In this document: positions 17,405-34,080 of the stretch, piece by piece | Layout of the letters: the number at the start of each line of letters is the position of its first letter | How positions within the stretch are numbered: the first letter of the stretch is position 1 | Assembly (NCBI GenBank): GCA_037308085.1 | Contig: CP147779.1 | Coordinates: forward strand, 288,001 to 352,000 | Direction: 5' to 3' | DNA length: 64,000 bases | Origin: Promethearchaeati archaeon SRVP18_Atabeyarchaeia-1 | GTDB taxonomy: Archaea; Asgardarchaeota; Atabeyarchaeia; Atabeyarchaeales; Atabeyarchaeaceae | Made by a program: the position numbers and the translations under genes | The notes under the pieces: model-generated | The model's database searches: none | What the model was told of the DNA's origin: nothing | What the model saw: the letters and a program-made list of their open reading frames with translations, nothing else

Positions 17405-18119
17405 GTGGAGTTGAAAGACTTAGAGAAGAACAAGCAGAGGCTTCTTGAGCACTACGTTGACGAAGGCATTGCTAATAGTAGCACTGTGATCAAGGCATTC
17501 ATGAAGGTTCCGAGAGAGGAATTTGTGCCGGAGGACGTCAGGGATTCTGCTTATGATGATCGCCCCCTTCCGATAGCTTTTGGGCAAACAATAAGTGCGC
17601 CACACTACTTGGGAACCCCAAGTTGGGCGAGACATGGTCATCATAATGTGTGAACAGTTGAAGCTTGAGGAAGGGCACCGCGTGCTCGAAGTGGGAACTG
17701 GTTCGGGTTACCATGCTGCGATCTGCGCCGAAATCGTTGCACCTGCCTCATCTCGGAAGCCGGGGCATGTCTACACAATCGAGAGAATAAGGTCCTTAGC
17801 CGACTTTGCTAGGGAGAACTTGAGGAGAACAGGTTACGAGGACCGCGTGACTGTAATTGTCGGAGACGGAACAGTAGGTTACAGGGAGGCCACGCCGTAC
17901 GACAGAATTCTTGTGACGGCGTCAGCGCCCAAAATCCCCGATCCTTTGGTCGAGCAGTTAGGCGACGCGGGAATAATGACGATCCCTGTTGGCGGTCGGT
18001 ACGGCTGGCAGGATTTGGTCATTATAAAGAAAATGAAGGACGGCAAGATAAAGACCGAGAACTTCGGTGGAGTAGCGTTTGTGCCCCTAATTGGAAGACA
18101 TGGCTGGGAAAACGAGTAG
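17405..18119 (+). CDS. pcm: Protein-L-isoaspartate O-methyltransferase; spliced, join(17405..17603,17632..18119), 228 aa
   Basis: [14 protein letters not shown]|[11 protein letters not shown] and FVPL motifs; the two ORF halves are out of frame until a 28-nt BHB intron is removed. Confidence 0.9.
17604..17631 (+). other. BHB-type mRNA intron in pcm (28 nt)
   Basis: Outer helix GTG/CAT, central helix CGCC/GGCG, bulges ACA and AGA, inner stem ACTTGGG/CCCAAGT. Confidence 0.85.
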
Positions 18120-30488: not shown

Positions 30489-30628
30489 GAGACCAAAACT
30501 AAACAAACCTAGAAGCCAACCTTAAGGAAAAGTATTCGACGTTCGTAAGATCGCAATGAGAAGGACAACTATAAAAGGAAACCTCGTATTATTATGGATT
30601 GAAAGACCTCGCCCTGAGGATCCTTATC

Positions 30629-31198
30629 ATGAGCAGCCCATCAGAACTAGTCGACATTCTGCAGAATGTGGCGAACATTTTTCTCCGAGCTGTCGAATCC
30701 ATTGAGAACCGAATGATGATGATAGAGCAGAGGCTCGACCAATTAGAGAGAACGTCCGCAGGATCTGGAGCATACGGGGCACCGCCTCCTAGTAGGGGGG
30801 CACCAGTTGCACCAAGCCAAGCCACGCCATCCGTGATGCAGGATAACCGGAGGGCACCTCCACCAATTATACCCCCGCCAGCGCCTCCTCAGCCACAGGC
30901 CTACGCTAGTCCTCAGCCGCAATGGGGAGCCCCAAGACAGGACAGCTACCCTCAGCCACCTAACCCGGGCTACCAGAGTAGACCACCAGCGCCCTCGTAC
31001 CCGCAGCAAGGCCAACAGCAGCAACCGCAAGGGTATGCTCCACAAGGGTACGCGCCACAAGGTCAGTCTCCTCCACAACAGCAGGGACCGCCTGGACCCA
31101 GACCGCCCGCTAATCCTTTGAACATCCGTCAGGAGATGACGGGTGAACTCAAAGATATTTTCGCAAGGATGAGGGCGCGTGCAGAAGGAAGGCAGTAG
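30629..31198 (+). CDS. Coiled-coil + Pro/Gln-rich + C-terminal amphipathic helix protein
   Basis: N-terminal heptads, PPPIIPPPAPP, QGYAP repeats and C-terminal IRQEMTGELKDIFARMR. Confidence 0.7.
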   Translation: MSSPSELVDILQNVANIFLRAVESIENRMMMIEQRLDQLERTSAGSGAYGAPPPSRGAPVAPSQATPSVMQDNRRAPPPIIPPPAPPQPQAYASPQPQWGAPRQDSYPQPPNPGYQSRPPAPSYPQQGQQQQPQGYAPQGYAPQGQSPPQQQGPPGPRPPANPLNIRQEMTGELKDIFARMRARAEGRQ

Positions 31199-31282: not shown

Positions 31283-32707
31283 CTAGAAGTAATCAGATAG
31301 GTTTCTTTGAACGGGTTGTTTCTCCTTTTCCTCCGTCGCTGGCTTCCTTTGCCGTTGCTGCTCTTCACTTTCTTGGCTGATCTGGATGGAGCGATCAGCC
31401 CGAGTATTCTCGTCTTCAAATATTATGGGCTGCCCATATACTCCGTCGTATCCTGGCCTGAACCTTATCTTCTTCTCCCTCACCCTCAAGATCGCTTCCG
31501 ACACCCTATCTCCTGAAACTGATGCAATCTCACTTCTAGGCGCCTCAAGCAGAATGTAGAGTTCATTTGGGAACCTCTTGAGAAGTCTCCCATATTCCTC
31601 CCACACAGCCTTGGAGAAAACCTCCTTGAGTCCTAGCGCGATGGATATTATCTCTTGAAGAGGGATCAGACTCACATATGGGATAGCTCCTTGGGGCTTG
31701 AAGCCATCCGCCCTATCAGCAAGTTCCTCGACGCGATCCAACACACCGACCGTCAACTTCCTTCCACAGACTGGACATATCTCATGGCACCTGCTGGATT
31801 CCTTTGGGCCAAGGACGACTTTGCAAATCCTGTGCCCAGTGTAATGATACTTCCCGTAACTTGGATCAACTTCAATTGTCTCGATGAATCTTGCTGGATC
31901 TTTCTTTCGGATTGTGTCGACTATCTCCTTGTAGGTCACATTTCGCAGTTCGAGGACATTTGCCTCTCTGCCTACACGGTAAGGCCAAGGACTGTGAGAA
32001 TCGCTGTTGCTCATCAGGGTGAATCGGTCCAAACTTGAAAGACGCCAATTCATCGCAGGGTCTGAACTCAAGCCAGTTTCAAGCGCGTGTATGTTCCGCG
32101 TCTGATCCTGAAAACAATCCTCAATCCTATCAAAACCCGACCTAGACCCAAACAAACTGAAAAACGGCGTCCACACGTGTGCTGGGATTACCTCATTCCA
32201 CTGGTCAATCTCTGTTATGATCGCCGTGAGTTCTGCCGCAGTTACCTTAAGCTTTGGTCTTCCATCCGAATTGAGGTCACCGTATTTGGAGATTCTATCG
32301 TTTATCTGCTTCGCAACTTCAAGGTTCGGGCATAGAACTAGAAGGTGAATTCTCTTTGCCTTTTCCTCCCAAGTGAACTCTGTGTCAACTTCTCCAGTTA
32401 CCATGAAAAGGGTCGATCCCGATACGCCCCGACCGGTCTTTAAGGTGTACAGCCCGCTCTTGTCAACCTCGGAAAGGGACGATTCACATTCCGTGAGCCA
32501 TCTCGGCGAGGTAAAGTGGAGACTCACCTACCTTAGCTTGCCGAAGCATTACATAATGCAGGTCGAGTTGTCTCCTGTGCCGAGAAGACTCAAACCCTTG
32601 ACCCTAGCCTGTCTTTCAAGATTGACCAGATTCATGTCTTGGCTGGTAGCCGCCGAATACTTGCTATGAATATGGAGATCTGCGACGACCCTCAGATGGC
32701 TGTCCAC
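31283..32707 (-). CDS. endoQ: Endonuclease Q / PHP-domain Zn-finger nuclease; spliced, join(32707..32570,32515..31283), about 456 aa
   Basis: Exon 1 has DLHIHSKYS...LGTGD; exon 2 has FTSPRW, PAHVWTP, ETGLSSD, NSDSHS, GREAN, GKYH and CPVC. Confidence 0.88.
32516..32569 (-). other. BHB-type mRNA intron in endoQ (54 nt, contains in-frame TAA)
   Basis: Central helix GGAG/CTCC, bulges ACA and ACT, inner stems ACTC/GAGT and ACCTGC/GTAGGT. Confidence 0.85.
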
Positions 32708-32808: not shown

Positions 32809-34080
32809 ATGAAAAAGAGAGAGCGAGAAAACCAGGATGGGCGAGACAGCGCGATGAGACAGGAGAATCGCCCAAGAATCTTCGACTTTGTCGAGAAAGA
32901 TCCTATACTGGACATAGAAGCCACTACGGAGTATCCAGTCATGTACCGAGCCCTCGGTAGTGAACAGAGATCTGGACATCCCTACCATGTTTACGATGAT
33001 ATCCGGACCGAACCCCAAGCCGTCAAGAAGACACTGGGTATTATCGACAATGACGTCAAACGAATCGCAGGGGAATTCAATAGAAGGGAGATTGACCACG
33101 TAGTTGGCATTGGAATGGGTACAAGTCAATTCGTGGCACAGGCCTGTGGGCCAGCCTTCTGGGAGTGGGCGCACCTGACGACTGAGGATCGTGATAGCGT
33201 AGAGCTCCTTACAGCCGACAAGCCGTATGACTACGAGCACACGGCCCTGATATGTTATAGCGGTAGCGGAAGCACGGTGGACACTATCTCTGCCGCCAAA
33301 AAGTTGACAGAGAAAGGAGCCTACAGTGTGGCTATGACCTCGATAGCAGGTAGCCCACTTACCAAGATAACGAAGGATACAATTGCATGCGCCGGGGGAT
33401 ATGACACAGGTGGATCAGACACATTTCACTACGCGACGCGCCTTGCAGCAAGTCTAGCCCTTGCAATCGAACTGGGGAAGGACAGGGCAGTCAACCACAT
33501 AGACTTCAAGGTTCTCAAATCCCAGTTGATGGCAGTGCCTACGGCAATGGCGGACCGACTTGACGAGACTGATAAGCGCTGCCAGAGCATTGCAAAACAT
33601 AATGCAAGAAGTCGCAGCGCGATCATCATCGGATCTGGTCCTAACTATGGGACAGCTGAGGAGATGGCGCTGAAATTCGATGAAATGGCGCATATCCCCG
33701 CGAAAGCGATGGTGCCGACTCGACACTTACATGGTGCGCTTGGGCTAACGGCCGAAAACATTCAGACAATAATCCTCGCGCCAGAGAGCAAAGCCTCTCG
33801 ATGGATTGAGCAGATTGCAGATGCAACCGTCATGTTGAAGAGCCCATCGATGGCAATCGTACCCGATGGGGAGAACGTGATTTCCCTCGTCATGGACTAC
33901 GTGATCAGAACCCCCGTCACAAACGAGCATCTATTTGCGTTGTACGTTGTTCCAGCCATCCAAATGTATCCGTACTACTGCGCTATTGAACAAGGTGGCA
34001 TCAACCCTGATTGTCAGAGAAGCGACATTCCGAAATATGCCCGAGTTTGGAGGATGGTTCTTCCGAGAGGATCACACTGA
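32809..34080 (+). CDS. SIS-domain sugar isomerase/deglycase (GlmS C-terminal-like)
   Basis: GMGTS, SGSGST and AEEMALK motifs; tandem SIS domains. Confidence 0.85.
   Translation: MKKRERENQDGRDSAMRQENRPRIFDFVEKDPILDIEATTEYPVMYRALGSEQRSGHPYHVYDDIRTEPQAVKKTLGIIDNDVKRIAGEFNRREIDHVVGIGMGTSQFVAQACGPAFWEWAHLTTEDRDSVELLTADKPYDYEHTALICYSGSGSTVDTISAAKKLTEKGAYSVAMTSIAGSPLTKITKDTIACAGGYDTGGSDTFHYATRLAASLALAIELGKDRAVNHIDFKVLKSQLMAVPTAMADRLDETDKRCQSIAKHNARSRSAIIIGSGPNYGTAEEMALKFDEMAHIPAKAMVPTRHLHGALGLTAENIQTIILAPESKASRWIEQIADATVMLKSPSMAIVPDGENVISLVMDYVIRTPVTNEHLFALYVVPAIQMYPYYCAIEQGGINPDCQRSDIPKYARVWRMVLPRGSH

What the first reader, a model, noticed from the sequence alone, without database searches (positions are those of the whole stretch)
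32505..32580. Second BHB mRNA intron, splitting EndoQ at the TGD|FT motif
Seen (minus strand): ...ACA-GGAG-AC^A-ACTC-G-ACCTGC-[loop with hairpin and CUUCGG]-GTAGGT-GAGT-CTCC-AC^T-TT... Cutting by the BHB rule removes 54 nt (32516-32569) and joins GAC to TTT, giving LGTGDFTSPRW. The intron carries an in-frame TAA, so the unspliced mRNA separates the metal-binding DLHIHS N-terminus from the rest; the ORF track misses exon 1. The outer helix is weak (about 1 bp), so the motif is relaxed, like non-canonical tRNA introns. Inference: a second independent, spliced protein-coding intron.
Basis: partly seen in the sequence, partly recalled or inferred. Interest (0 to 1): 0.9.

Follow-up and report, generated by a model that had tools for sequence, protein, structure and literature searches.

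The report
tRNA-type intron splitting the EndoQ gene
A DNA-repair gene (endonuclease Q) of an Asgard archaeon is interrupted by a 54-base insert that has the shape cut out by the tRNA-splicing enzyme. It is conserved across the whole lineage, so it is very probably a true intron in a protein-coding gene, which is rare in archaea.

Summary
On the minus strand, an EndoQ gene (TIGR00375; PfuEndoQ 5ZB8, E=6.5e-57) is split after LLGTGD by 54 nt (32516-32569). The insert carries in-frame TAA and TAG.

- **Same site in all relatives.** I recovered 13 alleles: 3 genomes, which are all that the class holds, and 10 metagenome contigs. Their inserts are 54, 53, 51, 42 or 41 nt. Each one shifts the frame or carries a stop.
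- **Absent from outgroups.** Twelve intron-less Asgard homologs read GTGD followed directly by F/I/V/L/C.
- **Gene under selection.** Both exons are under strong purifying selection (dN 0.11-0.23, dS saturated).
- **Structure.** The RNA forms a 4-bp central helix, a canonical 3-nt 5' bulge and an inner helix. The 3' cut lies in a 10-nt loop strand closed by a distal 7-bp exon-exon helix, so this is a relaxed motif (HBh'/BHL type). Cutting after the second bulge nucleotide restores the frame in 13 of 13 alleles. Five base pairs show compensatory changes.
- **Machinery.** The genome encodes a crenarchaeal-type alpha/beta EndA with the broad-specificity loop, and RtcB.

Splicing itself has not been shown; no spliced product is on record.

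Other first-stage notes on this genome had flagged similar introns. I verified those in pcm, glyA and gatE, and found a second EndoQ intron site in other Asgard lineages. This is a new member of the cbf5-type mRNA intron class, in a new gene and phylum.

The parts
32570..32707 (-). EndoQ exon 1 (46 codons, GTG start; PHP metal-binding motif DLHIHS, ends ...LLGTGD)
   Evidence: TIGR00375 profile positions 2-41. Aligns to PfuEndoQ residues 3-43. The GTG start and the 46-codon length are conserved in the six alleles with full-length exon 1.
32516..32569 (-). 54-nt BHB-type intron
   Evidence: Lies between the homology-defined exon ends. Same site in 13 alleles, with lengths of 41-54 nt. Single copy in the genome.
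31283..32515 (-). EndoQ exon 2 (410 codons plus stop), starts FTSPRW
   Evidence: TIGR00375 positions 74-373, E=8e-57. PfuEndoQ residues 78-384. Intron-less homologs read GTGD|F(T/S)HPxW.
32572..32575 (-). Central 4-bp helix, 5' strand (GGAG, last codons of exon 1)
   Evidence: Pairs with 32518-32521. 100% paired in 13 alleles. Pair 27-80 is seen as A-U, G-U and G-C.
32518..32521 (-). Central 4-bp helix, 3' strand (CTCC, near the intron's 3' end)
32569..32571 (-). 5' bulge ACA. The predicted cut is after the second nucleotide (between 32570 and 32569).
   Evidence: Flanked by the central and inner helices. The cut position equals the homology junction in 13 of 13 alleles.
32515..32517 (-). 3' cut-site triplet ACT. 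The predicted cut is between 32516 and 32515. It is the first 3 nt of a 10-nt single-stranded loop segment, not a closed bulge.
   Evidence: Only 0-1 bp can form next to it.
32558..32568 (-). Inner (intron) helix, 5' strand: ACTCG, a one-nt bulge, then CCTGC
   Evidence: Pairs with 32522-32531. 99.2% paired. Compensatory changes at pairs 34-76 and 38-73.
32522..32531 (-). Inner helix, 3' strand (GTAGG + TGAGT). It contains the conserved in-frame TAG 32530-32528.
32540..32547 (-). Apical hairpin GC-UUCG-GC. This region varies in sequence and length between alleles.
32579..32585 (-). Distal exon-exon helix, 5' strand (TCTCGGC, codons L-L-G)
   Evidence: Pairs with 32501-32507. Compensatory changes at synonymous sites: 18-96 goes C-G to U-A, and 15-99 goes U-A to C-G. 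Third positions of GGC and CCG are nearly fixed while neighbouring four-fold sites vary.
32501..32507 (-). Distal exon-exon helix, 3' strand (GCCGAGA, codons S-P-R)
32549..32551 (-). In-frame TAA inside the intron

Best explanation
This is an archaeal endonuclease-type (bulge-helix-bulge) intron inside the coding sequence of endonuclease Q. The host is an Asgard archaeon, most probably Atabeyarchaeum deiterrae.

Proposed mechanism:
1. The gene is transcribed as one pre-mRNA.
2. The last codons of exon 1 (GGAG) pair with the 3' end of the intron (CUCC) to form the 4-bp central helix.
3. The 5' cut site lies in a canonical 3-nt bulge between this helix and the intron's own stem.
4. The 3' cut site lies 4 bp away on the other strand, in a 10-nt loop segment held in place by a distal 7-bp exon-exon helix. 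This is the relaxed HBh'/BHL geometry.
5. The alpha/beta splicing endonuclease EndA cuts after the second nucleotide on each side, and RtcB joins GAC to UUU.
6. The result is an mRNA for a 456-aa EndoQ that reads ...LLGTGD-FTSPRW...

Without splicing, only a 52-aa peptide can be made from the start codon.

Shown here: the interruption, its conservation, the selection on both exons, the structure with covariation, the agreement between the cutting rule and the homology junction, and the presence of the enzymes.

Inferred: that cleavage and ligation actually occur, and that EndA and RtcB carry them out.
For: 1. **Gene identity.** Exon 1 and exon 2 hit consecutive parts of TIGR00375 and of PfuEndoQ 5ZB8/7K30.
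2. **Same boundary everywhere.** All three genomes of the class carry the insert at the same codon boundary: 54, 53 and 41 nt, with the frames differing in two of them. Ten further environmental alleles do too. All 13 either shift the frame or carry in-frame stops.
3. **Gene callers lose exon 1.** The 23 closest protein clusters in public data all begin after the junction. More distant homologs are full length.
4. **Outgroups are uninterrupted.** Twelve intron-less Asgard loci read straight through GTGD.
5. **Selection.** dN is 0.11-0.23 with dS saturated, and neither exon has any other lesion.
6. **Structure.** 94.4% of cells pair, against 35-48% for slid controls. Five pairs have changes on both sides, spread over the central, inner and distal helices. 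The covariation score is above 500 of 500 shuffles. The fold has z = -3.44.
7. **Cutting rule.** Cutting after the second bulge nucleotide gives the in-frame junction in 13 of 13 alleles. The chance of the motif falling on one exact pair of sites is about 2e-4.
8. **Machinery.** The EndA alpha subunit best matches A. pernix alpha (3P1Z_B, E=5e-46). It keeps the two basic residues of the Crenarchaea-specific loop, K-P-K versus APE K44/R46. That loop confers cleavage of BHL substrates (PMC3241643). A second EndA paralog appears to lack the catalytic His seen in alpha, judged by eye from its translation and so beta-like. One RtcB is present.
9. **Context.** BHB-rule introns also restore conserved motifs in pcm, glyA and gatE of this genome. 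A different EndoQ site (YG|KYH) carries them in four other Asgard genomes.
Against: - There is no direct evidence of splicing. No spliced-length product (about 456 aa) exists among the close relatives in the public protein collection, and no RNA-seq could be queried.
- The motif is not a strict hBHBh'. The outer helix next to the 3' site is 0-1 bp.
- RNAfold's MFE prefers a slipped register, a 6-bp GGAGAC/GUCUCC helix with an AAC bulge. That register would not give an in-frame product if it were cut.
- The core of the motif is nearly invariant, so the covariation rests on five pairs in related sequences.
- The two distal-helix compensations lie in coding sequence.
Confidence: 0.85

Rival explanations
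1. An intron removed at the RNA level, but not by EndA/RtcB acting on the BHB register. Another endonuclease-ligase pair, or EndA cutting a different conformer, would do the job.
For: The 3' site is not in a closed bulge. The MFE favours a slipped register. No enzyme assay was possible.
Against: The canonical rule (4 bp apart, cut after the second nucleotide) predicts the exact in-frame junction in 13 of 13 alleles. The slipped register would leave 2 extra nt. The host's EndA is of the type shown to cut BHL substrates.
Confidence: 0.05
2. A split gene. A 46-52-aa N-terminal peptide and a C-terminal protein started inside or after the insert are made separately and assemble without a covalent link.
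For: G000 has an in-frame GTG at 32527 just before exon 2. Gene callers report C-terminal ORFs.
Against: That GTG is GCG in 12 of the other alleles. No start codon is conserved, and gene callers pick six different downstream starts. In the 53- and 41-nt alleles the frames differ. The conserved RNA helices with compensatory changes would be unexplained. The HxH metal site lies on the small piece.
Confidence: 0.04
3. Translational bypassing (ribosome hopping over a coding gap, as in phage T4 gene 60) or another recoding event.
For: There is a 41-54-nt gap, with a stem-loop and a stop codon soon after the take-off region.
Against: No landing codon matches. The take-off codon is GAC or GAT, but the last intron codon is CAC, CAT or CAA. 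The first stop lies 6-19 codons after the junction, not next to it. Gap length varies from 41 to 54 nt. The helices that covary pair exon with intron in the BHB geometry, which is not a take-off hairpin.
Confidence: 0.03
4. A pseudogene or decaying gene carrying an old insertion.
For: The ORF is interrupted, and annotation pipelines truncate it.
Against: Synonymous sites are saturated, yet both exons stay open. They have dN/dS far below 1 and no other lesion in the three genomes. Both exons read open at the junction in all 13 alleles, and the C-terminal ORF is intact in the 23 closest protein clusters. The insert ends are the most conserved nucleotides of the region.
Confidence: 0.03

Closest known systems
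cbf5 pre-mRNA intron of Crenarchaeota (Watanabe 2002; Yokobori 2009, PMC2738675)
   Same: Both are short introns inside a protein-coding ORF. Both often have a relaxed BHB motif and occur in hosts with a hetero-oligomeric broad-specificity EndA. Both disrupt a conserved motif, so the protein needs splicing. Lengths are often not multiples of three. Both are conserved within a clade and missed by gene callers.
   Different: The gene differs (EndoQ, a PHP-domain DNA-repair nuclease). The phylum differs (Asgard, class Atabeyarchaeia). This intron is longer (41-54 nt against 16-44). The 3' site is closed at a distance by a covarying 7-bp exon-exon helix. Splicing of cbf5 was shown experimentally in some species; splicing here has not been shown.
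Non-canonical (HBh'/BHL) tRNA introns of Thermoproteales and Asgard archaea
   Same: The geometry is the same: one canonical bulge plus a cut site in a loop, 4 bp apart. The presumed enzymes are the same. The host lineage has introns in 92-95% of its tRNA genes, many at non-canonical positions (PMC11291895; preprint 10.64898/2026.10.13.758758).
   Different: The substrate is an mRNA with no tRNA body to help recognition. The exon parts of the motif are constrained by coding.
BHB intron in the 5' UTR of Haloferax volcanii HVO_1309 mRNA (PMC7714728)
   Same: It is an EndA substrate in an mRNA.
   Different: It lies in the UTR, not the ORF. The host has a narrow-specificity homodimeric enzyme and the motif is canonical.
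HAC1/XBP1 unconventional mRNA splicing in eukaryotes (Ire1 plus tRNA ligase/RtcB)
   Same: It is spliceosome-independent: endonuclease plus RNA ligase. The short intron is defined by RNA structure, and its removal changes the reading frame of a protein. This comparison rests on my own knowledge.
   Different: The endonuclease is different (Ire1). That system is regulated by stress. No regulation is shown here.

Membership tests
Archaeal BHB intron (EndA substrate), strict hBHBh' form | 4-bp central helix | tested here: met
   GGAG 32575-32572 pairs with CUCC 32521-32518. 100% paired in 13 alleles. One pair is seen as A-U, G-U and G-C.
Archaeal BHB intron (EndA substrate), strict hBHBh' form | Two 3-nt bulges on opposite strands, each closed by helices on both sides | tested here: not met
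   The 5' bulge ACA is canonical. The 3' site is the first 3 nt of a 10-nt loop strand, and the adjacent outer helix is 0-1 bp.
Archaeal BHB intron, relaxed HBh'/BHL form | Central helix, one canonical bulge and an inner helix, with the second cut site in a loop 4 bp away on the other strand | tested here: met
   The inner helix is 99.2% paired with 2 compensatory pairs. The loop is closed by a distal 7-bp helix with 2 compensatory pairs.
Archaeal BHB intron, relaxed HBh'/BHL form | Cutting after the 2nd nucleotide of each bulge gives the functional (in-frame, homology-consistent) junction | tested here: met
   13 of 13 alleles give ...GTGD|FT(S/M/L)PRW. Intron-less homologs read GTGD|F(T/S)HPxW.
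Archaeal BHB intron, relaxed HBh'/BHL form | The host encodes a broad-specificity splicing endonuclease and an RNA ligase | tested here: met
   There are two EndA paralogs. Alpha resembles A. pernix alpha and keeps the CSL K-P-K. The second paralog is beta-like and appears to lack the catalytic His, judged by eye from its translation. RtcB hits at E=2e-175. The role of the CSL is described in PMC3241643.
Archaeal BHB intron, relaxed HBh'/BHL form | The RNA is actually cleaved and the exons ligated in vivo | not testable with these tools
   No transcript data were available. No spliced-length product is in the public protein collection.
Endonuclease Q (TIGR00375 / PF27218; PfuEndoQ) | N-terminal PHP metal-binding HxH motif and full-length homology to PfuEndoQ | tested here: met
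   DLHIHS is in exon 1. Query 7-47 aligns to Pfu 3-43, and query 115-431 to Pfu 78-384, E=6.5e-57.
Endonuclease Q (TIGR00375 / PF27218; PfuEndoQ) | Score above the curated NCBIfam cut-off (326.6 bits) | tested here: inconclusive
   The exons were scored separately: 20.9 and 193.3 bits. The spliced protein could not be submitted as one reference.
Endonuclease Q (TIGR00375 / PF27218; PfuEndoQ) | Cleavage of DNA 5' of deaminated bases | not testable with these tools
   This needs a biochemical assay.

The most novel reading that the evidence does not exclude
The EndoQ intron may be one of dozens of endonuclease-type introns in protein-coding genes of Atabeyarchaeia and Freyarchaeia. Repair, translation and metabolic genes (endoQ, pcm, glyA, gatE, valS and others) would be affected. 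If so, in these Asgard archaea the tRNA-splicing machinery (EndA plus RtcB) works as a general mRNA-splicing system, which would be a prokaryotic interrupted-gene regime not described so far. Gains recur at different sites of the same gene in different lineages. The intron-exon pairing is kept in place by selection on synonymous sites.
Probability: 0.55. Interest if true: 0.9.

Novelty: new member of a known kind. Interest (0 to 1): 0.75.

Why it matters
In the literature I could search, the cbf5 mRNA of Crenarchaeota is the only archaeal protein-coding sequence reported to carry a BHB intron. One further case lies in a 5' UTR in Haloferax (PMC7714728, PMC2738675). The papers on this Asgard lineage describe its extraordinary load of tRNA introns but say nothing about mRNAs (PMC11291895; preprint 10.64898/2026.10.13.758758).

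This finding adds a comparatively well-supported mRNA intron in a new gene. It lies in the archaeal group closest to eukaryotes, and signs point to many more like it in the same genome. Three consequences follow:

- **Annotation.** All 23 closest public gene models lack exon 1 and with it the metal-binding motif.
- **Specificity.** It bears on how far the substrate range of the tRNA-splicing endonuclease extends.
- **Evolution.** It bears on debates about how interrupted protein-coding genes can arise and persist without a spliceosome.

Tried and rejected
- **Spliced product in public data.** I looked for one via the search for homologous proteins. There is none among close relatives; all 23 closest clusters start after the junction. 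This is uninformative about splicing, because most records are DNA assemblies.
- **Genome-wide census.** I combined the BHB motif, ORF merging and a coding-potential score, and compared the real rule with frame-shifting decoy cut positions.
  - The relaxed motif is far too common (about 60,000 per strand), so it gave no signal.
  - Requiring an adjacent outer helix of at least 2 bp gave 343 loci. The eight decoys gave a mean of 298 (SD 13), an excess of about 45.
  - Sensitivity is poor. Both endoQ and pcm were lost by the filters. I use the result only as a rough hint.
- **Helix extension.** The extension 32587-32591 / 32495-32499 predicted by RNAfold is not supported, because one of its pairs is unpaired in 11 of 13 alleles.
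- **Repeat or mobile element.** The intron is single copy in the genome.
- **Known RNA families.** Rfam and ARAGORN find nothing in the window.
- **First alignment.** With 7 alleles there was only one compensatory pair and no excess over shuffles. More alleles were needed.
- **Other explanations.** An intein or a group I/II intron is excluded by size (41-54 nt) and by lengths that are not multiples of three. An assembly error is excluded by 13 independent assemblies.
- **Literature.** PMC3064391 (Tocchini-Valentini 2011) is not held in the library.

Full report
**1. What is in the sequence**

Read on the minus strand, an ORF starts at GTG 32707 and encodes VDSHLRVVADLHIHS...KGLSLLGTGD. It then runs into NSTCIM-TAA (32551-32549). 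A second in-frame stop, TAG, lies at 32530-32528. In the same frame, 54 nt after the GAC codon, the sequence resumes with FTSPRW... and stays open for 410 codons to 31283.

The ORF list shows only a 52-aa and a 414-aa ORF.
- The first matches positions 2-41 of NCBIfam TIGR00375.
- The second matches positions 74-373, E=8e-57.

With the two stops masked, the whole stretch aligns to Pyrococcus furiosus endonuclease Q (5ZB8, 7K30) at E=6.5e-57. Exon 1 covers Pfu residues 3-43, ending at the Pfu sequence VGTGD. The gene is therefore EndoQ, and the break falls directly after the conserved GTGD.

**2. Whether it is a lesion or a conserved feature**

The window comes from a closed 2.81-Mb Asgard genome. 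Its class holds only three species genomes in the collection. One relative is named 'Promethearchaeati archaeon LC30'. The size, the LC30 label and the tRNA-intron richness fit Atabeyarchaeum deiterrae, 'Atabeyarchaeia-1', 2.81 Mbp (PMC11291895). This identification is an inference.

- **All three genomes are interrupted at the same codon boundary.** The inserts are 54, 53 and 41 nt, so in two genomes the exons lie in different frames.
- **Ten more alleles show the same thing.** A DNA pattern scan of metagenomes and look-ups of the closest protein clusters supplied them. Across the 13 alleles the lengths are 54 (nine times), 53, 51, 42 and 41 nt. Every allele shifts the frame or carries an in-frame stop. 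Removing the insert gives ...GTGD|FT(S/M/L)PRW... in all of them.
- **Public gene models lose exon 1.** The 23 closest protein clusters (65-99% identity) all begin after the junction, at six different pseudo-starts. The next tier (58% identity or less) is full length.
- **Outgroups are uninterrupted.** Twelve other Asgard loci read through GTGD|F/I/V/L/C without a break.
- **The gene is under selection.** Between the three genomes dN is 0.11-0.23 while dS is saturated, and there is no other lesion.

A pseudogene, an assembly artefact and a lineage-specific accident are thereby excluded.

**3. The RNA structure**

The elements are:
- Central helix: GGAG (32575-32572) pairs with CUCC (32521-32518).
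- 5' bulge: ACA (32571-32569) follows on the 5' strand.
- Inner helix: ACUCG pairs with (C/U)GAGU. After a one-nt bulge it continues as CCUGC/GUAGG, and it is capped by a variable hairpin.
- 3' side: CUCC is followed by ACU and seven more unpaired nucleotides.
- Distal helix: UCUCGGC (32585-32579) pairs with GCCGAGA (32507-32501), 7 bp, exon with exon.

The 5' site is therefore a canonical bulge. The 3' site lies in a loop strand. This is the relaxed HBh'/BHL geometry known from non-canonical tRNA introns.

The 101-nt region folds at -38.3 kcal/mol (z = -3.44).

On the 13-allele alignment (A2), 94.4% of cells pair, against 35-48% when partners are slid. The central helix is 100% paired and the inner helix 99.2%. 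Five pairs change on both sides:
- one in the central helix (A-U, G-U, G-C);
- two in the inner helix (U-A to C-G, and C-G to G-C);
- two in the distal helix (C-G to U-A, and U-A to C-G). Both of these lie at synonymous codon positions.

The covariation score exceeds 500 of 500 shuffles. The sequences are related, so this count is supportive rather than a probability.

Third positions of GGC (Gly) and CCG (Pro) in the distal helix are nearly fixed (one CCA in L036, compensated by CTT). The last base of the S/M/L codon is G in 12 of 13 alleles even though the amino acid changes. Nearby four-fold sites vary freely.

**4. Agreement of the cutting rule with homology**

EndA cuts after the second nucleotide of each bulge, 4 bp apart. 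This is established knowledge (Marck and Grosjean 2003, as cited). Applied here, the rule gives cuts at 32570|32569 and 32516|32515. These are exactly the junction required by protein homology and by the frame, in 13 of 13 alleles.

The relaxed motif alone is common, at about one per 46 nt per strand. Its probability at one exact pair of positions is about 2e-4.

One caveat applies. RNAfold's MFE prefers a slipped register, a 6-bp GGAGAC/GUCUCC helix with an AAC bulge, which has the same number of pairs. Cutting in that register would not restore the frame, so the enzyme would have to select the BHB conformer.

**5. The machinery**

The genome encodes two EndA paralogs.
- One (209 aa) best matches the catalytic alpha subunit of Aeropyrum pernix EndA (3P1Z_B, E=5e-46). 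It keeps the two basic residues of the Crenarchaea-specific loop, K-P-K aligned to APE K44-P-R46. That loop, and K44 in particular, confers cleavage of BHL and misplaced introns (PMC3241643).
- The other (241 aa) appears to lack the catalytic His, as read by eye from its translation, and resembles structural subunits.

One RtcB ligase is present. This is the alpha2-beta2 architecture associated with relaxed substrates and with the cbf5 mRNA intron (PMC2738675).

**6. Context beyond the finding**

- **A second EndoQ site.** In four other Asgard genomes EndoQ is interrupted at a different site, YG|KYH(Y/F)DGHR, by 24-32 nt. The BHB-rule cuts restore the frame there too. These are two genera in two families, and one is probably the closed Freyarchaeia genome. 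EndoQ has therefore acquired such introns at least twice.
- **Other genes in this genome.** I confirmed with my own scan that BHB-rule cuts restore TISAPH|MV in pcm (28 nt, window 17602-17629), YAEGWPGE|RVYAGC in glyA (38 nt) and CLLEA|DEEPPH in gatE (41 nt, a strict hBHBh'). valS has a 31-nt frame-breaking gap. Other first-stage notes had flagged these genes.
- **Census.** A decoy-controlled count suggests an excess of about 45 strict-motif ORF-joining sites. Its sensitivity and precision are low.

**7. Rivals**

- **Split gene.** There is no conserved start for exon 2, and the RNA covariation would be unexplained.
- **Ribosomal bypassing.** No landing codon matches, and the gap length varies.
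- **Pseudogene.** Refuted by the selection on both exons.
- **A different RNA-level mechanism.** This cannot be fully excluded without an assay.

**8. Known or new**

The searchable literature reports the cbf5 intron as the only BHB intron in an archaeal coding sequence, plus a 5'-UTR intron in Haloferax. Papers on Asgard introns concern tRNA only.

I therefore file this as a new member of a known kind: the first well-supported candidate in EndoQ and in Asgard archaea. Direct evidence of splicing is still missing.

Noticed in passing
L018:2149-2180, L019:2146-2173, L017:2152-2180, L007:2152-2175 (approximate intron spans): EndoQ of four other Asgard genomes is interrupted at a different site, between YG and KYH(Y/F)DGHR, by 32, 28, 29 and 24 nt. 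The genomes are G037 and G028, and G008 and G018. G037 is probably the closed Freyarchaeia genome. BHB-rule cuts restore the frame. The central helix is ATGG/CCAT (4 of 4 bp) in one genus and ACGG/ACGT (3 of 4 bp) in the other.
   Followed up: partly
window 17602-17629 (+): The pcm gene (protein-L-isoaspartate O-methyltransferase) is interrupted by 28 nt inside TISAPH|MV. The central helix is CGCC/GGCG, the bulges are ACA and AGA, and the outer helix is 3 bp. BHB-rule cuts restore the frame.
   Followed up: yes
G000:C1:654019-654056 (+), 2219067-2219107 (+), 443948-443978 (+); outside the window: glyA (38 nt) and gatE (41 nt, strict hBHBh' with a 9-bp inner and a 4-bp outer helix) are interrupted at conserved motifs, and BHB-rule cuts restore the frame. 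valS has a 31-nt frame-breaking gap for which my strict 4-bp search found no motif.
   Followed up: partly
P0001-P0023 (public protein clusters): All public gene models of this clade's EndoQ start after the intron, at six different pseudo-starts. They lack the metal-binding HxH motif. This is a systematic annotation error caused by the intron.
   Followed up: yes
window 32809-34080 (+): A divergently transcribed gene lies upstream of EndoQ. Its counterpart in the relatives' contigs L031, L032, L033 and L036 carries a SIS domain (PF01380), so the neighbourhood is conserved there. L035 has a Vps4-like AAA gene in that position instead.
   Followed up: no
window 1-64000: ARAGORN and Rfam (gathering thresholds) report no tRNA or other RNA family in the whole window. 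A first-stage note places a tRNA with three introns between 16457 and 32707. Multiply interrupted tRNA genes evidently escape both tools.
   Followed up: no
window 30599-31198 (+): An ORF of 199 aa has a coiled-coil-like N-terminus and a long Pro/Gln-rich tract. It lies directly downstream of EndoQ on the opposite strand.
   Followed up: no
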